Source: Escherichia coli
Lineage (GTDB): Bacteria > Pseudomonadota > Gammaproteobacteria > Enterobacterales > Enterobacteriaceae
Strand: one strand, 5' to 3'
Length of the DNA stretch: 64,000 bases
Assembly (NCBI RefSeq): GCF_001677475.2
Contig: NZ_CP015229.1
The first letter of the stretch is position 1. Each line of letters begins with the position of its first letter. The notes under the pieces are model-generated. The model worked only from the letters and a program-made list of their open reading frames with translations. It had not been told where the DNA came from and did not search any database. Below are positions 1,151-42,533 of the stretch, piece after piece. Position numbers and translations under genes: made by a program.

Positions 1151-1243
1151 ACAACGCCGAAGCTGTTTTGGCGGATTGAGAGAAGATTTTCAGCCTGATA
1201 CAGATTAAATCAGAACGCAGAAGCGGTCTGATAAAACAGAATT

Positions 1244-1363
1244 TGCCTGGCGGCCGTAGCGCGGTGGTCCCACCTGACCCCATGCCGAACTCAGAAGTGA
1301 AACGCCGTAGCGCCGATGGTAGTGTGGGGTCTCCCCATGCGAGAGTAGGGAACTGCCAGGCAT
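1244..1363 (+). rRNA. rrfB: 5S ribosomal RNA
   Basis: 120-nt sequence UGCCUGGCGGC...GGAACUGCCAGGCAU, canonical enterobacterial 5S. Confidence 0.97.
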
Positions 1364-3683: not shown

Positions 3684-4634
3684 TTATTTGCGTAGTCTGA
3701 CCTCTTCTACCGCATGATTAGCACTTTTCGTCAGGATTAAACTGGCGCGCTCGCGAGTAGGTAGAATATTTTGCTTTAAGTTCAGCCAGTTGATCTCTTT
3801 CCACAATGTCATGGCTGTCTTAATCGCTTCTTCTTTAGTTAATTTCGCGTAGTTATGAAAATAGGAATCCGGGTCTGTAAAAGCCCCTTCGCGGAATTTC
3901 AGAAAACGGTTGATATACCACGTCTGAAGTAAGTCTTCCGGTGCATCAACATATATCGAAAAATCGACAAAATCAGAAACAAATACATGATGTGGATCGT
4001 GTGGATAATCCATCCCGCTCTGTAAGACATTTAACCCTTCAAGAATTAAAATATCAGGCTGAACAACAGTTTTATCTCCATCCGGGATCACATCATAAAT
4101 AAGATGCGAGTAAACAGGGGCTGTAACGTTTGGCACGCCGGATTTGAGATCGGAAACAAACTTCACCAGGCGATGCATATCATACGATTCCGGGAAGCCT
4201 TTCTTCTTCATCAGACCACGTTCTTTCAGAACCTGATTAGGGTGAAGGAAGCCATCTGTAGTGATCAGTTCAACACGACGATGTTCCGGCCAACGGCTTA
4301 ATAGCGCCTGCAATACACGGGCGGTTGTACTTTTCCCCACCGCGACACTACCAGCAATACTGATAATGTAAGGAATGCGTTGCCCGTTGGTACCAAGAAA
4401 CTGTTCCAGAACTGCCTGACGGCGCAGATTCGAGCTTATATAGAAGTTCAGCAAACGTGACAGAGGTAAATAGATCTCGGCAACTTCTTCTAACGAGAGA
4501 TCTTCATTAATACCTTTGAGACGGGCGATCTCATCTTCCGATAACGTCATAGGTACGGAATCACGCAGAGCTGCCCACTGGTTGCGGTCAAACTGTAGGT
4601 AAGGCGTCATTAACGTTTGCTCTTTTATACTCAT
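3684..4634 (-). CDS. coaA: Pantothenate kinase (type I)
   Basis: ORF track gives 323 aa; start set to internal ATG giving 316 aa ([15 protein letters not shown]...), P-loop GSVAVGKST. Confidence 0.93.
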
Positions 4635-5078: not shown

Positions 5079-5163
<85 letters not shown>

Positions 5164-10532: not shown

Positions 10533-10570
10533 GCCAACCCTTCCGGTTGCAGCCTGAGAAATCAGGCTGA

Positions 10571-10602
10571 TGGCTGGTGACTTTTTAGTCACCAGCCTTT
10601 TT
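10571..10602 (+). terminator. rplL-rpoB intergenic attenuator (partial terminator)
   Basis: Hairpin GGCUGGUGACUUUUUAGUCACCAGCC followed by UUUUUG, in the 319-nt rplL-rpoB spacer. Confidence 0.75.
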
Positions 10603-25589: not shown

Positions 25590-26363
25590 ATGGATCGTAT
25601 AATTGAAAAATTAGATCACGGCTGGTGGGTCGTCAGCCATGAACAAAAATTATGGTTGCCGAAGGGAGAATTGCCATATGGCGAAGCGGCAAATTTCGAT
25701 CTTGTGGGTCAGCGCGCACTACAAATCGGCGAATGGCAGGGGGAACCTGTTTGGTTAGTACAACAGCAGCGGCGTCACGATATGGGGTCGGTACGTCAGG
25801 TCATTGATCTCGATGTTGGGCTGTTTCAACTGGCCGGACGTGGCGTGCAACTGGCGGAGTTTTACCGATCGCATAAATACTGTGGTTACTGCGGGCATGA
25901 AATGTATCCAAGCAAAACCGAATGGGCGATGCTGTGCAGCCATTGCCGTGAGCGTTACTACCCGCAAATCGCCCCCTGCATTATTGTTGCCATCCGTCGC
26001 GATGATTCGATCCTCCTCGCCCAGCATACCCGCCATCGTAACGGTGTCCATACAGTACTTGCCGGATTCGTCGAAGTGGGTGAAACCCTCGAGCAGGCAG
26101 TCGCGCGGGAAGTGATGGAAGAGAGCGGCATCAAAGTCAAAAATCTGCGTTATGTGACCTCCCAACCGTGGCCGTTTCCCCAGTCTTTAATGACCGCGTT
26201 TATGGCGGAATATGACAGCGGCGAGATCGTGATCGACCCGAAAGAATTGCTCGAGGCGAACTGGTATCGCTATGACGATTTGCCATTACTCCCGCCGCCC
26301 GGCACTGTAGCGCGCCGTCTGATAGAAGATACGGTGGCGATGTGTCGGGCAGAGTATGAGTGA
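25590..26363 (+). CDS. nudC: NADH pyrophosphatase (Nudix)
   Basis: 257-aa ORF with zinc-ribbon Cys (CGYCGH...CSHC) and Nudix box. Confidence 0.94.
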
Positions 26364-26402
26364 TGATACACTGACCGCCTGACGCACTAAGGAACAGCCA
26401 AA

Positions 26403-27467
26403 ATGACCGAACTTAAAAACGATCGTTATCTGCGGGCGCTGCTGCGCCAGCCCGTTGATGTCACTCCAGTATGGATGATGCGCCAGGCGGGTCGCTATCT
26501 ACCAGAATATAAAGCCACGCGTGCTCAGGCGGGCGATTTTATGTCGCTGTGCAAAAACGCCGAACTGGCGTGCGAAGTGACTTTGCAGCCGCTGCGTCGC
26601 TATCCGTTGGACGCGGCGATCCTCTTTTCCGATATCCTCACCGTGCCGGACGCGATGGGGTTAGGGCTCTATTTTGAAGCCGGAGAAGGTCCTCGTTTTA
26701 CCTCGCCAGTCACCTGCAAAGCTGACGTTGATAAACTGCCAATTCCGGATCCGGAAGATGAACTGGGTTACGTGATGAACGCGGTGCGTACCATTCGCCG
26801 CGAACTGAAAGGCGAAGTGCCGCTGATTGGTTTTTCCGGCAGTCCGTGGACGCTGGCGACCTACATGGTGGAAGGCGGCAGCAGCAAAGCGTTCACCGTG
26901 ATCAAAAAAATGATGTATGCCGATCCGCAGGCGCTGCATGCTCTGCTCGATAAACTGGCGAAAAGCGTCACTTTGTATCTGAATGCGCAGATTAAAGCCG
27001 GTGCTCAGGCTGTGATGATTTTCGACACCTGGGGCGGCGTGCTTACCGGGCGCGATTATCAACAGTTCTCGCTTTATTACATGCATAAAATTGTTGATGG
27101 TTTACTGCGTGAAAACGACGGTCGCCGCGTACCGGTCACGCTGTTTACCAAAGGCGGCGGACAGTGGCTGGAAGCCATGGCAGAAACCGGTTGCGATGCG
27201 CTGGGCCTCGACTGGACAACGGATATCGCCGATGCGCGCCGCCGCGTGGGCAATAAAGTCGCGTTGCAGGGTAATATGGATCCGTCGATGCTGTACGCGC
27301 CGCCAGCCCGCATTGAAGAAGAAGTAGCGACTATACTTGCAGGTTTCGGTCACGGCGAAGGTCATGTCTTTAACCTTGGTCACGGCATTCATCAGGATGT
27401 GCCGCCAGAACATGCTGGCGTGTTTGTGGAGGCAGTGCATCGCTTATCTGAACAGTATCACCGCTAA
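26403..27467 (+). CDS. hemE: Uroporphyrinogen decarboxylase
   Basis: 354-aa [39 protein letters not shown]... Confidence 0.96.
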
Positions 27468-27476
27468 GGAGTGATT

Positions 27477-28148
27477 ATGGATCTCGCGTCATTACGCGCT
27501 CAACAAATCGAACTGGCTTCTTCTGTGATCCGCGAGGATCGACTCGATAAAGATCCGCCGGATCTGATCGCCGGAGCCGATGTCGGGTTTGAGCAGGGCG
27601 GAGAAGTGACGCGAGCGGCGATGGTGCTGCTGAAATACCCCTCGCTTGAGCTGGTGGAGTATAAAGTGGCCCGCATCGCCACCACCATGCCTTACATTCC
27701 AGGTTTTCTTTCCTTCCGCGAATATCCTGCGCTGCTGGCAGCGTGGGAGATGCTGTCGCAAAAGCCGGATTTAGTGTTTGTCGATGGTCACGGGATCTCG
27801 CATCCTCGCCGTCTTGGCGTCGCCAGCCACTTTGGTTTGCTGGTGGATGTGCCGACCATTGGCGTGGCGAAAAAACGGCTCTGCGGTAAATTCGAACCGC
27901 TCTCCAGCGAACCGGGCGCGCTGGCCCCACTGATGGATAAAGGCGAGCAGCTGGCCTGGGTCTGGCGCAGCAAAGCGCGCTGTAACCCGTTGTTTATCGC
28001 TACCGGTCATCGGGTCAGCGTGGACAGCGCGCTGGCGTGGGTACAACGCTGCATGAAAGGCTATCGTCTGCCGGAGCCAACGCGCTGGGCGGACGCGGTG
28101 GCCTCGGAACGTCCGGCGTTCGTGCGCTATACAGCAAATCAGCCCTAA
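27477..28148 (+). CDS. nfi: Endonuclease V
   Basis: ORF track 225 aa from GTG; start set to ATG giving 223 aa ([13 protein letters not shown]...). Confidence 0.93.
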
Positions 28149-28190
28149 TTCAGGTAAACTGCGGATAATTTCCGTATTTGAGAACTCAAC

Positions 28191-28781
28191 ATGTTACAAA
28201 ACCCAATTCATCTGCGTCTGGAGCGCCTGGAAAGCTGGCAGCATGTCACTTTCATGGCTTGCTTATGCGAACGCATGTACCCCAATTACGCCATGTTTTG
28301 CCAGCAAACCGGTTTTGGCGATGGGCAAATTTACCGCCGTATTCTCGATCTCATCTGGGAAACGCTGACCGTCAAAGACGCAAAAGTAAATTTCGACAGC
28401 CAACTGGAGAAATTTGAAGAAGCGATTCCTTCAGCCGACGATTTCGATCTGTACGGCGTTTATCCGGCAATCGATGCATGCGTGGCGTTAAGTGAACTGG
28501 TCCATTCGCGTTTGAGTGGTGAAACGCTCGAACACGCGGTAGAAGTGAGTAAGACCTCCATCACAACCGTTGCGATGCTGGAAATGACTCAGGCTGGTCG
28601 CGAAATGAGCGATGAAGAGCTCAAAGAAAACCCAGCTGTAGAGCAAGAATGGGATATTCAGTGGGAAATATTCCGACTTTTAGCTGAGTGCGAAGAACGC
28701 GACATCGAGCTGATAAAAGGCCTTAGGGCAGACCTGCGTGAGGCGGGTGAGAGCAATATTGGTATAATTTTTCAGCAATAA
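28191..28781 (+). CDS. yjaG: DUF416-family protein of unknown function
   Basis: 196-aa ORF, position conserved between nfi and hupA. Confidence 0.88.
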   Translation: MLQNPIHLRLERLESWQHVTFMACLCERMYPNYAMFCQQTGFGDGQIYRRILDLIWETLTVKDAKVNFDSQLEKFEEAIPSADDFDLYGVYPAIDACVALSELVHSRLSGETLEHAVEVSKTSITTVAMLEMTQAGREMSDEELKENPAVEQEWDIQWEIFRLLAECEERDIELIKGLRADLREAGESNIGIIFQQ

Positions 28782-28967
28782 GACCAGAAAACGTGATTTA
28801 ACGCCTGATTTGTCGTACCTGGAGTCTTCCCTTTCGCCCCCCGTCTGGTCTACATTTGGGGGGCGAAAAAAAGTGGCTATCGGTGCGTGTATGCAGGAGA
28901 GTGCTATTCTGGCATTTCCGTCGCACTCGATGCTTAGCAAGCGATAAACACATTGTAAGGATAACTT

Positions 28968-29240
28968 ATGAACAAGACTCAACTGATTGATGTAATTGCA
29001 GAGAAAGCAGAACTGTCCAAAACCCAGGCTAAAGCTGCTCTGGAGTCCACTCTGGCTGCAATTACTGAGTCTCTGAAAGAAGGCGATGCTGTACAACTGG
29101 TTGGTTTCGGTACCTTCAAAGTGAACCACCGCGCTGAGCGTACTGGCCGCAACCCGCAGACCGGTAAAGAAATCAAAATTGCCGCAGCTAACGTACCGGC
29201 ATTTGTTTCTGGCAAGGCACTGAAAGACGCAGTTAAGTAA
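28968..29240 (+). CDS. hupA: DNA-binding protein HU-alpha
   Basis: 90-aa [31 protein letters not shown]... Confidence 0.98.
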
Positions 29241-29267
29241 GATTGCGTGGCAGTGAACAGTTTTAAC

Positions 29268-29298
29268 GAAGGGGTGGTTTCACCCCTTTTGTCTTTCT
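29268..29298 (+). terminator. hupA intrinsic terminator
   Basis: Hairpin AAGGGGUG-GUUU-CACCCCUU followed by UUUGUCUUUCU. Confidence 0.8.
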
Positions 29299-29312
29299 GG
29301 CGTCGATCATTG

Positions 29313-29948
29313 ATGCTGGCTGGTGCTCTGTTTCTCACTGCCTGTAGCCACAACTCTTCACTTCCTCCCTTTACCGCCAGTGGATTTGCTGAAGACCAGG
29401 GCGCGGTACGTATCTGGCGAAAAGACAGCGGCGATAATGTGCATCTGCTTGCCGTGTTTAGCCCGTGGCGCAGTGGCGATACCACGACGCGAGAGTATCG
29501 CTGGCAGGGCGATAACCTCACGCTCATCAATATCAATGTTTACAGCAAACCGCCGGTGAACATTCGTGCGCGTTTTGACGATCGCGGCGATCTGAGCTTT
29601 ATGCAACGTGAATCCGATGGGGAAAAGCAGCAGCTTTCTAACGACCAAATCGATTTATACCGTTATCGTGCTGATCAGATCCGCCAGATTAGCGATGCCT
29701 TACGTCAGGGGAGAGTCGTGCTGCGCCAGGGGCGCTGGCATGCGATGGAACAGACCGTGACCACCTGCGAAGGGCAAACCATTAAACCTGATTTAGATTC
29801 GCAGGCGATAGCGCATATCGAGCGCCGCCAGAGCCGCTCTTCTGTTGATGTCAGCGTGGCATGGCTGGAAGCGCCCGAAGGTTCGCAATTACTGTTAGTG
29901 GCAAACTCTGATTTCTGTCGCTGGCAACCCAACGAGAAAACGTTCTGA
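29313..29948 (+). CDS. yjaH: Predicted lipoprotein, DUF1481 family
   Basis: Start set to ATG after the hupA terminator, giving MLAGALFLTACS lipobox signal; ORF track maximal ORF (GTG 29247, 233 aa) would span the terminator. Confidence 0.7.
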   Translation: MLAGALFLTACSHNSSLPPFTASGFAEDQGAVRIWRKDSGDNVHLLAVFSPWRSGDTTTREYRWQGDNLTLININVYSKPPVNIRARFDDRGDLSFMQRESDGEKQQLSNDQIDLYRYRADQIRQISDALRQGRVVLRQGRWHAMEQTVTTCEGQTIKPDLDSQAIAHIERRQSRSSVDVSVAWLEAPEGSQLLLVANSDFCRWQPNEKTF

Positions 29949-29949
29949 T

Positions 29950-30375
29950 TTACCAGTGGCCCATACCCATATGACCGCCACCACCGCAGCCGCCGTAGCC
30001 CATGCCCATTCCGGCTCCGCGCGGAATACCCGCTTCAGCCATCGCAATATCCCGTTTCACCCGTAACTCATCTAACGACTGACGCAAATTCTCCATCTCT
30101 TTGGCGACCGCGTTAATTTTGCTGCTATCCGGTGGGTTCGCGGCTAACAGGGCATTGTATTCATAACGCTTCGTCACCAGTTGCTGTTGCAGTGCGCTGC
30201 TTTGAGCGTAAAAGTCATTATGGATTTTCTGCCACGCTGTCTGTTGTTCGCTGGTCAAAGGCGCGGCATTTTGCTGCCACATACCGTGTCCGCCGTGAGC
30301 AAATGCAGATGTCGATCCCATCGCCATTGCTGAAAGCGCCATCATTACCAGGGCAATTTTCGTGTTCCGTTTCAT
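29950..30375 (-). CDS. zraP: Zinc-resistance-associated periplasmic protein
   Basis: Start set to ATG giving 141 aa (MKRNTKIALVMMALSAMAMG... signal peptide, Gly/Met/His-rich C-terminus). Confidence 0.9.
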   Translation of the reverse strand: MKRNTKIALVMMALSAMAMGSTSAFAHGGHGMWQQNAAPLTSEQQTAWQKIHNDFYAQSSALQQQLVTKRYEYNALLAANPPDSSKINAVAKEMENLRQSLDELRVKRDIAMAEAGIPRGAGMGMGYGGCGGGGHMGMGHW

Positions 30376-30410
30376 GGTTAATCCTCCAGTGGTTGTCTTA
30401 CTTCGGGTAT

Positions 30411-30426
30411 TGCATCTTCCGTGCCA
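30411..30426 (-). promoter_or_regulatory. Sigma54 promoter of zraP
   Basis: Minus-strand TGGCAC-GGAAGA-TGCA with GG/GC spaced 10 nt, about 35 nt upstream of the zraP start. Confidence 0.65.
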
Positions 30427-30469
30427 ACGATGAAACGCTGATATGACGGGTAATCTGGCATGATAAACG

Positions 30470-30515
30470 AGTAAAAATGACTCGCCTGCTGCGGGTAGCG
30501 AGTCATTTTTACTCA
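30470..30515. promoter_or_regulatory. ZraR enhancer site (inverted repeat) between zraP and zraS
   Basis: Perfect 17-bp inverted repeats GAGTAAAAATGACTCGC ... GCGAGTCATTTTTACTC separated by 12 bp. Confidence 0.7.
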
Positions 30516-30565
30516 TTGAAACTTAAGCCTTTGTGTTACAGCGCAGGGTAAGCGCTGATAAAAGA

Positions 30566-30581
30566 TGGCATGATTTCTGCT
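30566..30581 (+). promoter_or_regulatory. Sigma54 promoter of zraSR
   Basis: TGGCAT-GATTT-CTGC with GG/GC spaced 10 nt, about 30 nt upstream of the zraS ATG. Confidence 0.55.
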
Positions 30582-30612
30582 GTCAGAAAGGGATGAGCAG
30601 GCAAAGAAGAAG

Positions 30613-31989
30613 ATGCGTTTTATGCAACGTTCTAAAGACTCCTTAGCTAAATGGTTAAGCGCGATCCTCCCCGTGGTCATTGTTGGGCTGGTGGGGCTGT
30701 TTGCGGTGACTGTGATTCGCGATTATGGGCGCGAGACTGCCGCCGCCAGACAAACGCTGCTGGAAAAAGGCAGTGTACTTATCCGTGCTCTCGAATCCGG
30801 CTCGCGCGTCGGCATGGGGATGCGCATGCATCATGCGCAGCAGCAGGCATTACTGGAAGAAATGGCCGGGCAGCCTGGTGTACGTTGGTTTGCGGTCACG
30901 GATGAACAAGGAACAATCGTGATGCATAGCAACTCCGGCATGGTGGGAAAACAGCTTTATTCCCCGCAGGAAATGCAGCAGTTACATCCGGGAGATGAAG
31001 AAGCGTGGCGGCGGATCGATAGCGCAGACGGCGAGCCTGTTCTGGAAATTTATCGCCAGTTTCAACCGATGTTTGCTGCTGGAATGCACCGGATGCGCCA
31101 TATGCAGCAGTATGCCGCGACACCACAAGCAATTTTCATCGCTTTCGACGCCAGTAATATTGTGAGTGCCGAAGATCGTGAGCAGAGAAACACCCTGATT
31201 ATCCTTTTCGCCCTGGCGACGGTCTTGCTGGCAAGCGTATTGTCATTCTTCTGGTATCGCCGCTATCTGCGCTCGCGCCAGCTTCTACAAGATGAAATGA
31301 AGCGCAAAGAGAAGCTGGTGGCGCTGGGGCATCTTGCGGCAGGCGTTGCCCACGAAATCCGTAACCCACTTTCCTCGATTAAAGGACTGGCGAAATACTT
31401 TGCCGAGCGCGCGCCTGCAGGGGGAGAAGCGCATCAACTGGCGCAGGTGATGGCGAAAGAGGCCGACCGTTTAAACCGCGTGGTAAGCGAGTTGCTGGAA
31501 CTGGTTAAGCCAACGCATCTGGCTTTGCAGGCGGTGGATCTCAACACGCTGATTAACCACTCATTACAGCTGGTAAGCCAGGATGCAAACAGCCGGGAGA
31601 TCCAGTTACGCTTTACCGCCAACGACACATTACCGGAAATTCAGGCCGATCCGGACAGGCTGACTCAGGTCCTGTTGAATCTCTATCTCAATGCTATTCA
31701 GGCGATTGGTCAGCATGGCGTGATTAGCGTGACGGCCAGCGAAAGCGGCGCGGGCGTGAAAATTAGCGTTACCGACAGCGGTAAGGGAATTGCGGCAGAT
31801 CAGCTTGAAGCCATCTTCACCCCGTACTTCACCACCAAAGCCGAAGGCACCGGACTGGGGCTGGCGGTCGTGCATAATATTGTTGAACAACACGGTGGTA
31901 CAATTCAGGTCGCAAGCCAGGAGGGAAAAGGCGCAACGTTCACCCTCTGGCTTCCGGTCAATATTACGCGTAAGGACCCACAAGGATGA
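30613..31989 (+). CDS. zraS: Sensor histidine kinase of the ZraSR two-component system
   Basis: 458-aa ORF with TM N-terminus, H-box (HEIRNPL) and ATPase G-boxes. Confidence 0.93.
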   Translation: MRFMQRSKDSLAKWLSAILPVVIVGLVGLFAVTVIRDYGRETAAARQTLLEKGSVLIRALESGSRVGMGMRMHHAQQQALLEEMAGQPGVRWFAVTDEQGTIVMHSNSGMVGKQLYSPQEMQQLHPGDEEAWRRIDSADGEPVLEIYRQFQPMFAAGMHRMRHMQQYAATPQAIFIAFDASNIVSAEDREQRNTLIILFALATVLLASVLSFFWYRRYLRSRQLLQDEMKRKEKLVALGHLAAGVAHEIRNPLSSIKGLAKYFAERAPAGGEAHQLAQVMAKEADRLNRVVSELLELVKPTHLALQAVDLNTLINHSLQLVSQDANSREIQLRFTANDTLPEIQADPDRLTQVLLNLYLNAIQAIGQHGVISVTASESGAGVKISVTDSGKGIAADQLEAIFTPYFTTKAEGTGLGLAVVHNIVEQHGGTIQVASQEGKGATFTLWLPVNITRKDPQG

Positions 31990-33311
31990 CGCACGATAAT
32001 ATCGATATTCTGGTGGTGGATGATGACATTAGCCACTGCACTATTTTGCAGGCTTTACTGCGCGGCTGGGGCTATAACGTCGCGCTGGCGAACAGCGGGC
32101 GACAGGCGCTGGAGCAGGTGCGGGAGCGAGTTTTTGATCTTGTGCTTTGCGATGTGCGAATGGCAGAGATGGATGGCATCGCCACGCTGAAAGAGATCAA
32201 AACATTAAACCCCGCGATTCCGGTGCTGATTATGACCGCGTACTCCAGCGTCGAGACGGCGGTAGAGGCGTTGAAAACCGGGGCGCTGGATTATCTCATC
32301 AAGCCGCTGGATTTCGATAACCTGCAGGCGACGCTGGAAAAGGCGCTCGCACATACGCACAGTGTTGACGCTGAAACGCCTGCGGTGTCTGCCAGCCAGT
32401 TCGGTATGGTCGGTAAAAGCCCGGCGATGCAACACCTGCTCAGTGAAATCGCCCTCGTCGCGCCATCGGAAGCCACGGTGCTGATCCACGGCGATTCCGG
32501 CACCGGTAAAGAGTTGGTCGCCAGGGCGATTCACGCCAGTAGCGCACGGAGTGAAAAACCACTGGTAACGCTCAACTGTGCGGCACTCAACGAATCCTTG
32601 CTGGAATCTGAATTGTTCGGTCACGAAAAAGGGGCGTTTACTGGAGCTGATAAACGCCGGGAAGGGCGCTTTGTTGAGGCGGATGGCGGCACGTTGTTTC
32701 TCGATGAAATTGGCGATATCTCGCCGATGATGCAGGTGCGTCTGCTACGTGCGATTCAGGAGCGCGAAGTTCAGCGTGTCGGTAGCAACCAGACTATTTC
32801 GGTTGATGTCCGGCTGATTGCGGCGACTCATCGCGATCTTGCCGCAGAGGTGAATGCCGGGCGTTTTCGCCAGGATCTCTACTATCGCCTGAATGTGGTG
32901 GCGATTGAAGTACCGTCGCTGCGGCAACGGCGGGAAGATATTCCTCTGCTGGCTGGTCATTTTCTTCAGCGCTTTGCCGAACGTAATCGCAAGGCGGTAA
33001 AAGGTTTTACGCCCCAGGCGATGGATCTGCTGATTCATTACGACTGGCCGGGCAATATTCGTGAGCTGGAAAATGCGGTGGAACGGGCAGTGGTGCTGCT
33101 GACCGGGGAATATATTTCCGAACGCGAGCTGCCGCTGGCGATTGCCAGTACGCCGATCCCGCTGGTACAAAGTCAGGATATTCAGCCGCTGGTGGAAGTC
33201 GAAAAAGAAGTGATTCTGGCGGCACTGGAGAAAACGGGCGGCAACAAAACCGAAGCCGCCCGTCAGTTAGGGATCACGCGCAAAACGCTATTGGCAAAAC
33301 TGTCGCGTTAG
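31986..33311 (+). CDS. zraR: Sigma54-dependent response regulator ZraR
   Basis: 441-aa ORF with receiver domain, AAA+ sigma54-activation domain (GAFTGA) and C-terminal HTH. Confidence 0.95.
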
Positions 33312-34597
33312 TTCTGCTCGCGTTCGATAGCGCGCCAGCCGATATCTTTCCGGCAGAAGCAGTCATCCCAGTGGATATCAGTCATTAAGTCATAGGCGCG
33401 TTTCTGCGCTTCTGCCACGGTATGACCCAGCGCGGTGACGCACAGTACGCGCCCGCCGCTGGTCACCACCTGCTCGTCATCTGCCAGTTTTGTGCCCGCG
33501 TGGAACACTTTGCCGCCTTCGACTTCTTCCAGGGGCAGGCCGTGGATCACATCGCCAGTGCGATAATCGCCCGGATATCCACCCGCAGCCATCACCACGC
33601 CGAGAGAAGCGCGTTCATCCCACTCGGACGTTTTCTCGTCCAGCTTGCCTTCACAGGCCGCCAGGCAAAGCTCAACCAGATCGGACTTCATGCGCAGCAT
33701 AATCGGCTGGGTTTCCGGATCGCCAAAGCGGCAGTTAAATTCAATAACCTTCGGATTGCCCTGTTTGTCGATCATCAGGCCCGCGTAGAGAAAACCAGTG
33801 TAGGTGTTGCCTTCTGCCGCCATGCCTTTCACGGTTGGCCAGATAATTCGTTCCATCGTGCGCTGATGAACCTCATCGGTCACTACTGGCGCAGGGGAGT
33901 AAGCGCCCATCCCGCCGGTGTTCGGCCCGGTATCTTTATCGCCTACGCGTTTGTGATCCTGGCTGGTGGCCATCGGCAGCACATGCTCACCGTCCACCAT
34001 CACGATAAAGCTCGCTTCTTCGCCGTCGAGGAACTCTTCGATAACGATGCGATGCCCCGCGTCGCCAAAAGCGTTGCCCGCCAGCATATCGTGAACAGCC
34101 GCTTCCGCTTCTTCCTGCGTCATCGCCACGATAACGCCTTTCCCGGCAGCCAGACCGTCAGCTTTAATGACGATTGGCGCGCCTTTCTCACGCAGATACG
34201 CCAGCGCAGGTTCTACCTCGGTGAAGTTCTGGTATTCCGCCGTAGGGATCTGATGGCGGGCCAGGAAATCCTTGGTAAACGCTTTCGAGCCTTCCAGCTG
34301 CGCGGCACCTGCGGTTGGGCCGAAGATTTTCAGCCCGGCGGCGCGGAAGGTATCCACCACGCCTTTCACCAGTGGCGCTTCCGGGCCGACGATGGTTAGA
34401 TCGATCTTTTCGTTTTGCGCGAAATCCAGCAGCGCCGGGATATCGGTTACGCCGATAGCGACGTTTTGCAGTGCAGGCTCCAGCGCAGTGCCTGCGTTAC
34501 CCGGAGCAACAAAAACAGTTTCAACCAGCGGCGACTGGGCCGCTTTCCAGGCCAGCGCGTGCTCGCGCCCGCCGTTACCAATCACTAATACTTTCAT
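33308..34597 (-). CDS. purD: Phosphoribosylamine--glycine ligase
   Basis: 429-aa ORF MKVLVIGNGGREHALAWKAAQS... Confidence 0.96.
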   Translation of the reverse strand: MKVLVIGNGGREHALAWKAAQSPLVETVFVAPGNAGTALEPALQNVAIGVTDIPALLDFAQNEKIDLTIVGPEAPLVKGVVDTFRAAGLKIFGPTAGAAQLEGSKAFTKDFLARHQIPTAEYQNFTEVEPALAYLREKGAPIVIKADGLAAGKGVIVAMTQEEAEAAVHDMLAGNAFGDAGHRIVIEEFLDGEEASFIVMVDGEHVLPMATSQDHKRVGDKDTGPNTGGMGAYSPAPVVTDEVHQRTMERIIWPTVKGMAAEGNTYTGFLYAGLMIDKQGNPKVIEFNCRFGDPETQPIMLRMKSDLVELCLAACEGKLDEKTSEWDERASLGVVMAAGGYPGDYRTGDVIHGLPLEEVEGGKVFHAGTKLADDEQVVTSGGRVLCVTALGHTVAEAQKRAYDLMTDIHWDDCFCRKDIGWRAIEREQN

Positions 34598-34608
34598 CTA
34601 TTGCTCCA

Positions 34609-36198
34609 TTAATGGCGGAAGTGGCGCATGTCGGTGAAGAGCATTGCAATACCGTGTTCATCGGCGGCGGCAATCACTTCGTCATCACGGATAGAACCGC
34701 CAGGCTGGATTACGCAGGTCACGCCCGCAGCGGCGGCGGCATCAATACCGTCGCGGAACGGGAAGAACGCGTCAGAAGCCATCGAGGAACCTTTCACTTC
34801 CAGACCTTCATCGGCCGCTTTAATACCGGCGATTTTCGCGGAGTACACGCGGCTCATCTGGCCCGCGCCAATGCCGATGGTCATATTGTTTTTGGCATAG
34901 ACGATGGCGTTGGATTTCACGAACTTCGCCACCTTCCAGCAGAACAGCGCATCACGCAGTTCCTGTTCGCTCGGCTGGCGTTTGGTGACGACGCGCAGTT
35001 CTTCCGCACCGACCATGCCCAGATCGCGATCCTGAACCAGCAGACCGCCGTTCACGCGTTTGAAATCAAGACCCGGAACACGCTCGCCCCACTGACTGCA
35101 GGTCAGGACGCGTACGTTCTGTTTGGTGGCGGTGATTTTCAGGGCTTCTTCGCTGGCGGACGGCGCAATAATCACTTCAACAAACTGACGAGAAATGATG
35201 GCCTGCGCGGTTTCCGCATCCAGCTCGCGGTTAAAGGCGATAATGCCGCCGAATGCGGAGGTCGGGTCGGTTTTGTACGCGCGATCGTAAGCATCAAGAA
35301 TGGAATTGCCGATAGCCACGCCGCAAGGGTTGGCGTGCTTCACAATCACACATGCCGGCTCGGCGAACTCTTTCACGCACTCCAGCGCCGCATCGGTATC
35401 GGCGATGTTGTTATAAGAGAGGGCTTTACCCTGAACCTGGATTGCGGTAGCAACGGAGGCTTCTTTCACATTCTCTTCTATATAGAAGGCAGCCTGCTGG
35501 TGGCTGTTCTCGCCGTAACGCATATCCTGCTTCTTAATGAAGTTCAGGTTCAGCGTGCGTGGGAAGCGACCGGCGGCTTCTTTGCTTTCACCGTGATAGG
35601 CTGGGACCATGCTGCCGAAGTAGTTGGCAATCATGCTGTCGTAGGCGGCGGTATGTTCAAAGGCTTTGATAGCGAGATCGAAACGGGTTGCAAGCAGAAG
35701 CGATCCTTCGTTGGCATCCATCTCTTTAATGATGGCGTCGTAGTCGCTGCTCTTCACCACGATGGCGACATCTTTATGGTTCTTGGCGGCGGAGCGCACC
35801 ATCGTTGGGCCGCCGATATCGATGTTCTCAACCGCATCTTCCAGCGAGCAACCTTCACGGGCAACGGTCTGGGCGAACGGATACAGGTTAACAACCACCA
35901 TATCGATAGGCTGGATCTGATGTTCTTCCATAATGGCATCGTCCTGGCCGCGACGGCCCAGAATGCCACCATGTACTTTCGGATGCAGGGTCTTCACGCG
36001 TCCATCCATCATCTCCGGGAAACCGGTGTAATCGGAAACTTCGGTTACCGGCAGACCTTTTTCTGCTAACAGACGGGCAGTGCCCCCTGTAGACAGCAGC
36101 TCCACACCGCGTGCGGAAAGTGCCTGGGCGAATTCGACGATACCGGCTTTGTCAGAAACACTGAGCAGAGCGCGGCGGACTGGACGACGTTGTTGCAT
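34609..36198 (-). CDS. purH: Bifunctional AICAR transformylase / IMP cyclohydrolase
   Basis: 529-aa ORF. Confidence 0.96.
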
Positions 36199-36814: not shown

Positions 36815-38356
<1,542 letters not shown>

Positions 38357-38441
38357 CCTTAAAGAACTGTGCTTTGCAGTGCTCACACAGATTGTCTGAT
38401 AGAAAGTGAAAAGCAAGGCGTCTTGCGAAGCAGACTGATAC

Positions 38442-38517
38442 GTCCCCTTCGTCTAGAGGCCCAGGACACCGCCCTTTCACGGCGGTAACAGGGGTTCGAA
38501 TCCCCTAGGGGACGCCA
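38442..38517 (+). tRNA. gltV: tRNA-Glu (anticodon UUC) in the 16S-23S spacer
   Basis: 76-nt sequence GUCCCCUUCGUCUAGAGGCCCAGGACACCGCCCUUUCACGGCGGUAACAGGGGUUCGAAUCCCCUAGGGGACGCCA. Confidence 0.96.
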
Positions 38518-38710
38518 CTTGCTGGTTTGTGAGTGAAAGTCACCTGCCTTAATATCTCAAAATTCATCTTCGGGTGATGTTTGAGATATTTGCTCTTTAA
38601 AAATCTGGATCAAGCTGAAAATTGAAACACTGAACAACGAAAGTTGTTCGTGAGTCTCTCAAATTTTCGCAACACGATGATGAATCGAAAGAAACATCTT
38701 CGGGTTGTGA

Positions 38711-41612
<2,902 letters not shown>

Positions 41613-41709
41613 ACAACGCCGAAGCTGTTTTGGCGGATGAGAGAAGATTTTCAGCCTGATACAGATTAAATCGACAGGTCAGAACATGACGTGTTGATAA
41701 AACAGAATT

Positions 41710-41829
41710 TGCCTGGCGGCCGTAGCGCGGTGGTCCCACCTGACCCCATGCCGAACTCAGAAGTGAAACGCCGTAGCGCCGATGGTAGTGTGGGGTCTCC
41801 CCATGCGAGAGTAGGGAACTGCCAGGCAT
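41710..41829 (+). rRNA. rrfE: 5S ribosomal RNA
   Basis: 120-nt sequence identical to the 5S copy at 1244-1363. Confidence 0.97.
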
Positions 41830-41832
41830 CAA

Positions 41833-41876
41833 ATAAAACGAAAGGCTCAGTCGAAAGACTGGGCCTTTCGTTTTAT
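41833..41876 (+). terminator. rrn T1 intrinsic terminator (rrnE copy)
   Basis: Same hairpin and U-tract as at 1367-1410. Confidence 0.88.
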
Positions 41877-41983
41877 CTGTTGTTTGTCGGTGAACGCTCT
41901 CCTGAGTAGGACAAATCCGCCGGGAGCGGATTTGAACGTTGCGAAGCAACGGCCCGGAGGGTGCCAGGCATCAAATTAAGCAG

Positions 41984-42014
41984 AAGGCTCAGTCGGAAGA
42001 CTGGGCCTTTTTGC
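41984..42014 (+). terminator. rrn T2-like terminator (rrnE copy)
   Basis: Hairpin AAGGCUCAGUCGGAAGACUGGGCCUUUUUGC. Confidence 0.7.
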
Positions 42015-42032
42015 ATTGGCGCAGAAAATAAT

Positions 42033-42057
42033 GCCGGATGCGACGCTGGCGCGTCTG
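42033..42057. repeat. Truncated REP-like element
   Basis: GCCGGATGCGACGCTGGCGCGTC matches the 5' half of the REP consensus. Confidence 0.5.
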
Positions 42058-42089
42058 CTCCAGCTTACGCAGGCACGATAGGGGGCAGC

Positions 42090-42533
42090 TTATTCCCCCA
42101 CATATGCCAGATTCAGCAATGGATACGGTTTCCCCAAATCGTCCACCTCAGAGCGTCCCGTAACCTTAAAACCCACCTTCTTATAGAACCCAACCGCCTG
42201 CTCATTTTGCTCATTAACATTGGTTGTCAGTTCCGGGGCCATTGAGAGCGCATGCTCCACCAGCATCCGACCCACGCCGCAGCCGCACACATCAGGATCG
42301 ATAAACAGCGCATCCATATGCTGCCCACTTAACAACATAAACCCAACCGGCTGATCCCGTTCATTAACCGCGACCCACAACGGTGCTTCCGGCAGAAAGG
42401 AACGCACCAGCTCTTCCAGCTCGGCCCGATACTCCGCTGATAAAAAATCGTGGGTGGCATCGACAGATCGACACCAAATCGCAACGAGTTCTTCCCCTTC
42501 CTCATGCCGCGAGCGGCGAATACTAATAACCAT
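42090..42533 (-). CDS. yjaB: GNAT-family N-acetyltransferase
   Basis: 147-aa ORF with acetyl-CoA-binding motif (GCGVGRMLV). Confidence 0.9.
   Translation of the reverse strand: MVISIRRSRHEEGEELVAIWCRSVDATHDFLSAEYRAELEELVRSFLPEAPLWVAVNERDQPVGFMLLSGQHMDALFIDPDVCGCGVGRMLVEHALSMAPELTTNVNEQNEQAVGFYKKVGFKVTGRSEVDDLGKPYPLLNLAYVGE

What the first reader, a model, noticed from the sequence alone, without database searches (positions are those of the whole stretch)
41613..41709. 23S-5S spacer of the second operon carries a divergent block
The rrlB-rrfB spacer (1151-1243, 93 nt) and the rrlE-rrfE spacer (41613-41709, 97 nt) are identical except for one single-base indel and a replaced block (CAGAACGCAGAAGCGGTCTG versus CGACAGGTCAGAACATGACGTGTTG) just upstream of the 5S 5' end. 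This is the region recognised by the 9S/5S processing nucleases, so the two precursors may be processed with different efficiency. It also provides an operon-specific tag useful for assembly checking.
Basis: seen in the sequence. Interest (0 to 1): 0.12.

Follow-up and report, generated by a model that had tools for sequence, protein, structure and literature searches.

The report
Swapped hairpin in pre-5S rRNA spacer
The two ribosomal RNA operons in this window carry different but structurally equivalent versions of a small hairpin just upstream of the 5S rRNA gene; this is a common, already known polymorphism of Escherichia coli and its relatives, so the finding is ordinary.

Summary
The rrnB-type spacer (1151-1243) and the rrnE-type spacer (41613-41709) differ only by a 1-nt T indel and a replaced block (1211-1230 versus 41672-41696). 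DNA on both sides is otherwise 100% identical. The block is a stem-loop, not random divergence. Both versions fold on the same AUC/GAU base, with a 6-7 bp lower stem, a 1x1 purine-G mismatch and a 3-4 bp upper stem. Both end 8 nt before the RNase E cut that leaves the AUU extension of pre-5S RNA. Three stem pairs change on both sides and still pair. K-12 has the rrnB form in all seven operons. The second form occurs in 985 of 5426 complete E. coli genomes, in one to seven operons, including rrnH, rrnD and all seven in some. Its stem also occurs in E. whittamii, Superficieibacter and Silvania. A third allele with the same architecture exists. The literature already describes this spacer as the most variable part of the E. 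coli rrn operon and documents gene conversion of it between operons. In-silico swapping does not change predicted accessibility of the cut site. Verdict: a known allelic hairpin shuffled by gene conversion or recombination, probably processing-neutral. Only the single loop base (CAU versus CAG) is unique to this window.

The parts
41613..41709 (+). 23S-5S internal transcribed spacer of the second operon (rrnE position), 97 nt. It forms the 5' leader of the 9S pre-5S RNA.
   Evidence: Rfam boundaries of 23S and 5S; sequence; alignment to the K-12 spacers.
41670..41698 (+). Type-2 stem-loop AUCGACAGGUCAGAACAUGACGUGUUGAU. It has a 7-bp lower stem, a G x G mismatch, a 4-bp upper stem and the loop GAACA.
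   Evidence: Folds at -14.6 kcal/mol, z -4.6, with 0 of 200 shuffles as stable. The hairpin is kept in the MFE and centroid structures of the full 9S RNA. The stem is identical to E. coli B2, E. whittamii, Superficieibacter and Silvania alleles.
41699..41709 (+). Invariant single-stranded linker AAAACAGAAUU carrying RNase E site 'a'. The cut is inferred between 41706 and 41707, leaving the AUU 5' extension of p5S.
   Evidence: Identical in both operons and in all seven K-12 operons except rrnC, which reads GAUGAAAC. The AUU extension of p5S is taken from PMC9848016. Predicted unpaired probability around the cut is 0.84-0.99. Cleavage itself was not tested.
41638..41638 (+). Single T where operon 1 has TT (1176-1177). 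It shortens the middle hairpin of the spacer (41635-41656) by one U-G pair.
   Evidence: The same indel is polymorphic among K-12 operons: TT in rrnH, rrnA and rrnE, and T in rrnG, rrnD, rrnC and rrnB.
41710..41829 (+). 5S rRNA gene of operon 2, identical to that of operon 1.
   Evidence: Rfam RF00001, 92.8 bits; 100% identity to operon 1.
1151..1243 (+). 23S-5S spacer of the first operon (rrnB position), 93 nt. It is identical to the K-12 rrnH spacer.
1209..1232 (+). Type-1 stem-loop AUCAGAACGCAGAAGCGGUCUGAU. It has a 6-bp lower stem, an A x G mismatch, a 3-bp upper stem and the loop AGAA. This is the classical K-12 9S hairpin.
   Evidence: Folds at -11.1 kcal/mol, z -4.0. Kept in the full 9S fold. 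Present in all seven K-12 operons and at 27,764 places in 4,376 of 5,426 E. coli genomes.
1244..1363 (+). 5S rRNA gene of operon 1.
   Evidence: Rfam; K-12 annotation convention.

Best explanation
The 'divergent block' is an alternative allele of the stem-loop that sits immediately 5' of RNase E site 'a' in the 9S precursor of 5S rRNA. After RNase III releases 9S RNA, RNase E cuts the single-stranded AAAACAGA|AUU segment 8 nt downstream of this hairpin. The helix helps to present or position the site, so its shape matters and its sequence does not. The hairpin is therefore free to vary. In E. coli and relatives it exists as at least three sequence-unrelated but architecturally equivalent alleles. 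Homologous recombination between strains and gene conversion between the seven rrn operons move these alleles around. In this genome the rrnB copy carries allele 1, the K-12 form. The rrnE copy carries allele 2, the second most common E. coli form, with one private loop substitution that adds an A-U pair. The swap is most likely neutral or nearly neutral for 5S maturation. Shown here: the hairpins, their equal geometry, the compensatory changes, and the population and taxonomic distribution. Inferred: the role in RNase E cleavage (from literature on the K-12 rrnB 9S RNA), the gene-conversion origin, and neutrality.
For: Both blocks fold as stable hairpins on the same AUC/GAU base. They persist in folds of the full 9S RNAs.
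A hand structural alignment shows that pairs 6, 9 and 10 change on both sides (GC/CG, CG/GC, GC/UA). One G-U pair is inserted, and a purine x G 1x1 mismatch is retained at the same place.
A third allele, UAACCGGC-GACAA-GCGGGUUA, has the same architecture.
Within allele 2 the stems are invariant while the loops vary: AGAA, AGAG, AGAACAG, AUAACGG, AUAACGA, GGAGAAA and AGAACAU.
Census in 5,426 complete E. coli genomes, out of 38,011 junctions: allele 1 at 27,764 places in 4,376 genomes; allele 2 at 5,145 places in 985 genomes, with 1-7 copies per genome; allele 3 at 1,342 places in 731 genomes.
Allele 2 sits in rrnH in APEC O1, in rrnD in MDR_56, in all seven operons in ST131 strains, and in rrnE here.
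The allele-2 stem is also found in Escherichia whittamii, Superficieibacter electus and Silvania hatchlandensis.
The flanks are 100% identical between the two window operons, as expected under concerted evolution.
Literature: gene conversions that switch 23S-5S spacer alleles between E. coli operons were observed at 3.5e-5 per genome per generation (PMC8022953). The 23S-5S ITS has been called the most hypervariable region of the E. coli rrn operon (PMC6118388 citing Anton et al. 1999). Two stem-loops precede the RNase E site in 9S RNA, and disrupting them perturbs cleavage (10.1101/341578). RNase E recognises helices adjacent to its sites (PMC6202311). p5S carries a 5' AUU extension (PMC9848016).
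In-silico swapping of the hairpins leaves site accessibility unchanged.
Against: No experiment here or in the papers I could read compares RNase E processing of the different alleles, so neutrality is an inference.
Only three stem types were seen. The covariation evidence therefore rests on few independent events and on a hand alignment, because MAFFT aligns the alleles differently.
The exact window variant, with loop CAU, was found nowhere else: not in complete E. coli genomes (best hit has 1 mismatch), not in GTDB species representatives and not in metagenome contigs. Its placement in rrnE could not be checked in the closest relatives, whose draft contigs break inside the 5S gene.
The primary papers (Anton 1999; Christiansen 1988; Cormack & Mackie 1992) are not held in the library. 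I cite them only second-hand.
Confidence: 0.82

Rival explanations
1. Functional specialisation. The two hairpin alleles would make the rrnB and rrnE 9S precursors mature at different rates or under different conditions, and selection would maintain both.
For: The hairpin lies next to the RNase E site, and stem-loops upstream of that site affect cleavage in vitro. Allele 2 is predicted to be somewhat more stable (-14.6 versus -11.1 kcal/mol) and has a longer stem and loop. Several alleles coexist in the species at appreciable frequency.
Against: The geometry, the distance to the cut and the cut-site sequence are the same. Predicted site accessibility is unchanged by the swap. K-12 works with allele 1 in all seven operons, and ST131 strains carry allele 2 in all seven, so neither allele is needed alongside the other. 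The allele is not tied to any one operon.
Confidence: 0.08
2. Assembly or polishing artefact. The rrnE spacer in this assembly would be a mis-placed or chimeric consensus of reads from other rrn copies, and the CAU loop base would be an error.
For: rrn operons are more than 5 kb of near-identical repeat. The flanks here are 100% identical for more than 1.1 kb. The exact variant is found in no other sequence searched. The same operon also has a 26-nt deletion between T1 and T2 that its 99.5%-identical relatives lack.
Against: The 18 stem bases are identical to a genuine allele present in 985 complete genomes and in three other species. The private U extends the upper stem by a Watson-Crick A-U pair rather than disrupting it. 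A chimera of reads would more likely give a broken hairpin such as the one in JBEHAAB-19-0176.
Confidence: 0.07
3. Insertion of a foreign or mobile sequence, such as a miniature repeat element or a phage or plasmid fragment, into the spacer.
For: The block is a sharply bounded replacement with an inverted repeat.
Against: It is a replacement of equal architecture, not an insertion; the net change is +5 nt. It has no other copy in the window. No Rfam family matches the spacer. It always occurs at this one position of rrn operons, in several genera.
Confidence: 0.02

Closest known systems
Leader stem-loop of E. coli K-12 rrnB 9S RNA, the hairpin preceding RNase E site 'a' (Christiansen 1988; Cormack & Mackie 1992; cited second-hand)
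   Same: Same position in the 23S-5S spacer and the same AUC/GAU base. The downstream AAAACAGA|AUU cut site is identical. Both have a lower stem, a 1x1 purine-G mismatch, an upper stem and an A-rich loop. Operon 1 of the window carries exactly this hairpin.
   Different: In operon 2, 13 of about 25 columns differ. The stem is one to two pairs longer and the loop differs.
Allele-2 spacer of E. coli phylogroup-B2-type strains, e.g. rrnH of APEC O1, UTI89, S88 and ATCC 11775, and all operons of ST131
   Same: Both stem arms are identical (CGACAGGUC / GACGUGUUG) and so are the flanks. APEC O1 rrnH is 153/154 identical to the window across the 23S end, spacer and 5S start.
   Different: One loop base differs: AGAACAU here and AGAACAG there. 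The allele sits in rrnE here rather than in rrnH, in rrnD or in all operons. The window's flanking genes are only ~98% identical to any complete RefSeq E. coli.
Divergent 23S-5S spacer alleles of E. coli B REL606 (186-bp and 92-bp forms) that switch between operons by gene conversion (PMC8022953)
   Same: The same phenomenon: alternative spacer alleles coexist within one genome and are exchanged between rrn operons.
   Different: Those alleles differ over the whole spacer and in length. Here only the 5S-proximal hairpin is exchanged, apart from one separate 1-nt indel.
Allele-3 hairpin (UAACCGGC-GACAA-GCGGGUUA) of other E. coli strains
   Same: Same position, same architecture including the G x G mismatch, and the same distance to the cut.
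   Different: The stem sequence is unrelated and the base of the stem is also replaced, AUU/AAU instead of AUC/GAU. It is rarer: 1,342 places in 731 genomes.

Membership tests
9S pre-5S rRNA leader (23S-5S ITS of enterobacterial rrn operons) | Lies between the 3' end of 23S rRNA and the 5' end of 5S rRNA in an rrn operon | tested here: met
   Rfam: 23S ends at 41612 and 5S starts about 41710-41712.
9S pre-5S rRNA leader (23S-5S ITS of enterobacterial rrn operons) | Stem-loop immediately upstream of a single-stranded A/U-rich RNase E site that leaves AUU on p5S | tested here: met
   Hairpin at 41670-41698. The linker AAAACAGAAUU is identical to K-12 and predicted to be unpaired around the cut. 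The AUU extension is taken from PMC9848016.
9S pre-5S rRNA leader (23S-5S ITS of enterobacterial rrn operons) | Actual cleavage by RNase E at site 'a' | not testable with these tools
   Requires an enzymatic assay or 5'-end mapping.
E. coli spacer hairpin allele 2 | Stem arms CGACAGGUC and GACGUGUUG on the AUC/GAU base | tested here: met
   Identical arms in APEC O1, ATCC 11775, MDR_56, JJ1887, E. whittamii, Superficieibacter and Silvania.
E. coli spacer hairpin allele 2 | Loop sequence equal to a previously seen variant | tested here: not met
   The loop AGAACAU was not found in 5,426 E. coli genomes (best hit has 1 mismatch), in GTDB representatives or in metagenomes. Loops vary freely within this allele, so this does not exclude membership.
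Any curated Rfam RNA family covering the spacer | Covariance-model match within 41613-41709 | tested here: not met
   Only 23S and 5S match at E <= 1. Two weak chance hits lie downstream, on the minus strand.
Mobile or repeated element | Further copies elsewhere, outside the rrn spacer | tested here: not met
   There is a single occurrence in the window at up to 3 mismatches. All hits in the collections lie between 23S and 5S.

The most novel reading that the evidence does not exclude
The hairpin alleles might not be interchangeable. All three alleles conserve a purine x G mismatch and an A-rich loop, which could be a specific recognition feature, for RNase E or for another factor acting on the 9S leader. 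Alternatively, the released ~85-nt leader fragment ending in this hairpin could have an allele-specific activity of its own. Either would mean that operons carrying different alleles contribute differently to 5S supply or regulation.
Probability: 0.06. Interest if true: 0.4.

Novelty: already known. Interest (0 to 1): 0.08.

Why it matters
It matters little for biology. The block is one of several common alleles of a structural hairpin in the most variable part of the E. coli rrn operon, and its presence in one operon but not another is the expected result of incomplete concerted evolution.

It has two minor practical uses. First, it is a natural covariation data set: three alleles with one architecture, supporting the view that the shape of the stem-loop upstream of RNase E site 'a' is what is selected. 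Second, within a single finished genome such allele differences can help to check that rrn copies were not collapsed. They cannot be used as operon-specific markers across strains.

Tried and rejected
- Primary papers: Anton et al. 1999 (PMC93708) and Christiansen 1988 (PMC338420) are not held in the library. I used papers that cite them instead.
- Metagenome scan for the exact loop-U variant gave 0 hits.
- A second metagenome scan, for hairpin alleles whose 3' arm does not end in U before GAUAAAACAG, also gave 0 hits. There was no positive control, so this is uninformative.
- Source organism: the exact ArpA protein is not on record. The exact ZraS protein is common but sits on DNA that is only 98% identical. 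The exact AceK protein led to two draft assemblies at 99.5-99.6% identity, but their contigs break in the 5S gene, so their spacers cannot be read.
- Recoded or synthetic genome: I briefly considered this because proteins are identical while the DNA differs by ~2%. I rejected it because the differences are scattered third-position changes typical of natural polymorphism.
- MAFFT alignment of the hairpin alleles aligns allele 1 to the shared UCAGAAC word rather than by structure. It was therefore unusable for the count of structure pairs, and I made a hand structural alignment instead.
- A relaxed-threshold Rfam search of the spacer found nothing relevant.
- The NusG-anchored look-up, meant to sample other species, returned only E. 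coli/Shigella-like rrnB loci. It did reveal allele 3.

Full report
**1. What is in the sequence**

Rfam finds two rRNA operon tails in the window. One is a 23S 3' fragment (1-1150) followed by 5S. The other is a complete 16S-tRNA-23S-5S operon (36815-41827).

Synteny identifies the operons. The first is followed by murB, birA, coaA, four tRNAs and tufB. The second lies between purH/purD and metA-aceBAK. These are the rrnB and rrnE positions of E. coli.

With 5S starting at UGCC, as in the K-12 annotation, the spacers are 1151-1243 (93 nt) and 41613-41709 (97 nt).
- There is one T indel: TT at 1176-1177 versus T at 41638.
- There is one replaced block: CAGAACGCAGAAGCGGTCTG at 1211-1230 versus CGACAGGTCAGAACATGACGTGTTG at 41672-41696.

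The last 1150 nt of 23S, the 5S genes and the T1 terminator are 100% identical between the operons. The differences are therefore an island in perfectly homogenised DNA, which is far from what chance scatter would give. The block has no other copy in the window.

**2. What the block is**

Each block, together with the shared flanking AU...AU, folds as a stable hairpin on the same AUC/GAU base.

| Operon | Free energy | z-score |
|---|---|---|
| Operon 1 | -11.1 kcal/mol | -4.0 |
| Operon 2 | -14.6 kcal/mol | -4.6 |

 Both hairpins survive in the MFE and centroid folds of the complete 9S precursors, 1159-1410 and 41621-41876.

I aligned the two hairpins by structure. They have the same plan:
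- a 6-7 bp lower stem;
- a 1x1 purine x G mismatch;
- a 3-bp upper stem, 4 bp in the window's allele 2 because its private U adds an A-U pair;
- an A-rich loop.

Three pairs change on both sides and still pair (G-C/C-G, C-G/G-C, G-C/U-A). One G-U pair is inserted.

[quoted passage not shown] The cut is therefore 8 nt downstream of the hairpin in both operons, at 1240|1241 and 41706|41707. This position is inferred, not measured.

The block lies outside the RNase III processing stem. That stem is formed by the first ~13 nt of the spacer with the 23S 5' flank, by my reading.

**3. How common the allele is**

All seven K-12 MG1655 operons carry the operon-1 hairpin, here called allele 1. The T indel is itself polymorphic among K-12 operons. 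The 9S template primer used in the field reads GGCGGATGAG, the single-T form.

The operon-2 hairpin, allele 2, is absent from K-12 but common elsewhere. A 62-nt probe centred on it matches 5,145 places in 985 of 5,426 complete E. coli genomes, with 1 to 7 copies per genome.

The operon that carries allele 2 differs between strains:
- In APEC O1 the single copy is in rrnH (gmhB-rrnH-aspU-dkgB).
- In MDR_56 a copy is followed by tRNA-Thr, which is the rrnD context.
- In ST131 strains all seven places match.

Within allele 2 the two stem arms never vary, while the loop does: AGAACAG, AUAACGG, AUAACGA.

A scan of one genome per GTDB species found the same arms in three other species:
- Escherichia whittamii, loop GGAGAAA;
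- Superficieibacter electus, 4 contigs, loop AGAG, including the rrnB- and rrnE-equivalent contexts;
- Silvania hatchlandensis, 4 contigs, loop AGAA.

While sampling rrnB loci through an exact NusG look-up, I met a third allele, UAACCGGC-GACAA-GCGGGUUA. It has the same architecture, including a G x G mismatch (-11.6 kcal/mol, z -4.5).

| Allele | Places | Genomes |
|---|---|---|
| 1 | 27,764 | 4,376 |
| 2 | 5,145 | 985 |
| 3 | 1,342 | 731 |

The total is 38,011 junctions. The remainder is presumably other forms, such as the 186-bp spacer of E. coli B.

A second cassette, the middle hairpin of the spacer, is also exchanged in some strains. One genome has a chimeric 5S-proximal hairpin.

**4. 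What is already known**

- The 23S-5S ITS has been described as the most hypervariable region of the E. coli rrn operon (Anton et al. 1999, as cited in PMC6118388).
- A mutation-accumulation study directly observed gene conversions that switch the 23S-5S spacer between two divergent alleles in different operons, at 3.5e-5 per genome per generation (PMC8022953).
- For the mechanism, 9S RNA is cut twice by RNase E to give p5S (PMC6202311, PMC9848016).
- Two stem-loops precede the single-stranded 5' site, and disrupting them perturbs cleavage (Cormack & Mackie 1992, as summarised in bioRxiv 10.1101/341578).
- RNase E contacts helices adjacent to its sites through its RNase H-like and small domains. 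A mutant in those contacts is impaired on 9S RNA.

**5. Interpretation**

The block is an allele of the RNase E-proximal stem-loop of the 9S leader. Shape, position and distance to the cut are conserved, and the sequence is free to vary.

Different operons of one genome can carry different alleles because concerted evolution by gene conversion is incomplete. Recombination between lineages also imports alleles. The perfectly identical flanks fit this explanation.

Exchanging the hairpins on either backbone leaves the predicted unpaired probability of the AAAACAGAAUUUG segment unchanged (0.51 to 0.53, and 0.62 to 0.62). The 1-nt T indel shifts it slightly.

K-12 has only allele 1 and ST131 has only allele 2, so a cell does not need both. 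I therefore consider differential processing unlikely, at about 0.08, though it has not been tested experimentally.

**6. Caveats**

- The exact window variant, with loop CAU, was found nowhere else. It adds an A-U pair to the upper stem, so it looks like a real, harmless substitution. A polishing error cannot be excluded.
- The window's non-ribosomal genes are only ~98% identical to every complete RefSeq E. coli. Conserved r-protein and rpoB DNA is ~99.1-99.4% identical.
- The nearest relatives found, at 99.5-99.6% identity, are drafts whose contigs end inside the 5S gene. Placement of allele 2 in rrnE could therefore not be cross-checked.
- The covariation evidence rests on three stem types and a hand alignment.

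**7. Verdict**

This is an ordinary, already described polymorphism, and interest is low.

Noticed in passing
window 1209-1232 and 41670-41698; L035 about 4010-4040: All three sequence-unrelated hairpin alleles keep a 1x1 purine x G mismatch between a 6-7 bp lower stem and a 2-4 bp upper stem, plus an A-rich loop. I have no explanation for why the mismatch is conserved.
   Followed up: partly
L035 (GCA_040529145.1, rrnB spacer); also L039 and L040: A third allele of the 5S-proximal hairpin, UAACCGGC-GACAA-GCGGGUUA, has loop variants GAUAA and GGUAA and sometimes a duplicated GAUUA upstream. It occurs at 1,342 places in 731 of 5,426 complete E. coli genomes.
   Followed up: partly
L005 (E. coli JBEHAAB-19-0176, NZ_AP028869.1 about 4163458-4163513): A chimeric hairpin has the 5' arm of allele 2 joined to the 3' arm of allele 1 at the shared CAGAA word. 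It folds poorly (-5.6 kcal/mol, z -1.0). It looks like a partial gene-conversion tract and would be a natural test of whether the stem is needed.
   Followed up: partly
window 41962 (versus 1496-1521): The rrnE tail lacks 26 nt (TGGCGGGCAGGACGCCCGCCATAAAC, a GC-rich hairpin between terminators T1 and T2). Those 26 nt are present in operon 1 and in the rrnE tails of the two 99.5%-identical relatives. It is either a real deletion or an assembly error.
   Followed up: partly
window 41830-42090: The region downstream of the rrnE 5S gene is a copy of the rrnB T1-T2 terminator region, homologous to 1364-1577. yjaA is absent. K-12 rrnE instead has its own terminator followed by yjaA. The relatives L020 and L021 share the window's arrangement.
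   Followed up: partly
L002, L004 and L005 (spacer positions corresponding to window 41636-41658): A second exchangeable cassette exists in the same spacer. The middle hairpin GGAUGAGAGAAGAUUUUCAGCC is replaced by GGAAGAGACAUCGA(U/C)AAGUAAGCUU in ST131 and some other strains. It combines independently with the 5S-proximal hairpin alleles.
   Followed up: no
window 1173 and 41635 region; position after GAAG at 1163 / 41625: The base after CCGAAG (C, G or A in different operons and strains) faces a U in the 23S 5' flank of the RNase III stem. It gives U x C, U-G or U-A. The site is polymorphic among K-12 operons.
   Followed up: no
whole window, e.g. 26000-36000 and 42000-64000: Non-ribosomal genes are only ~98% identical to the best of 5,426 complete RefSeq E. 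coli genomes. The differences are mostly at synonymous sites. The exact ArpA protein is not on record. The source appears to be a rarely sequenced, divergent E. coli-group lineage.
   Followed up: partly
window 38595-38703 and 10537-10598: Two Rfam matches lie outside the finding. StyR-44 sits just upstream of the 23S gene, in the leader that forms the RNase III stem. 'P26' sits in the rplL-rpoB intergenic region. Both are known families.
   Followed up: no
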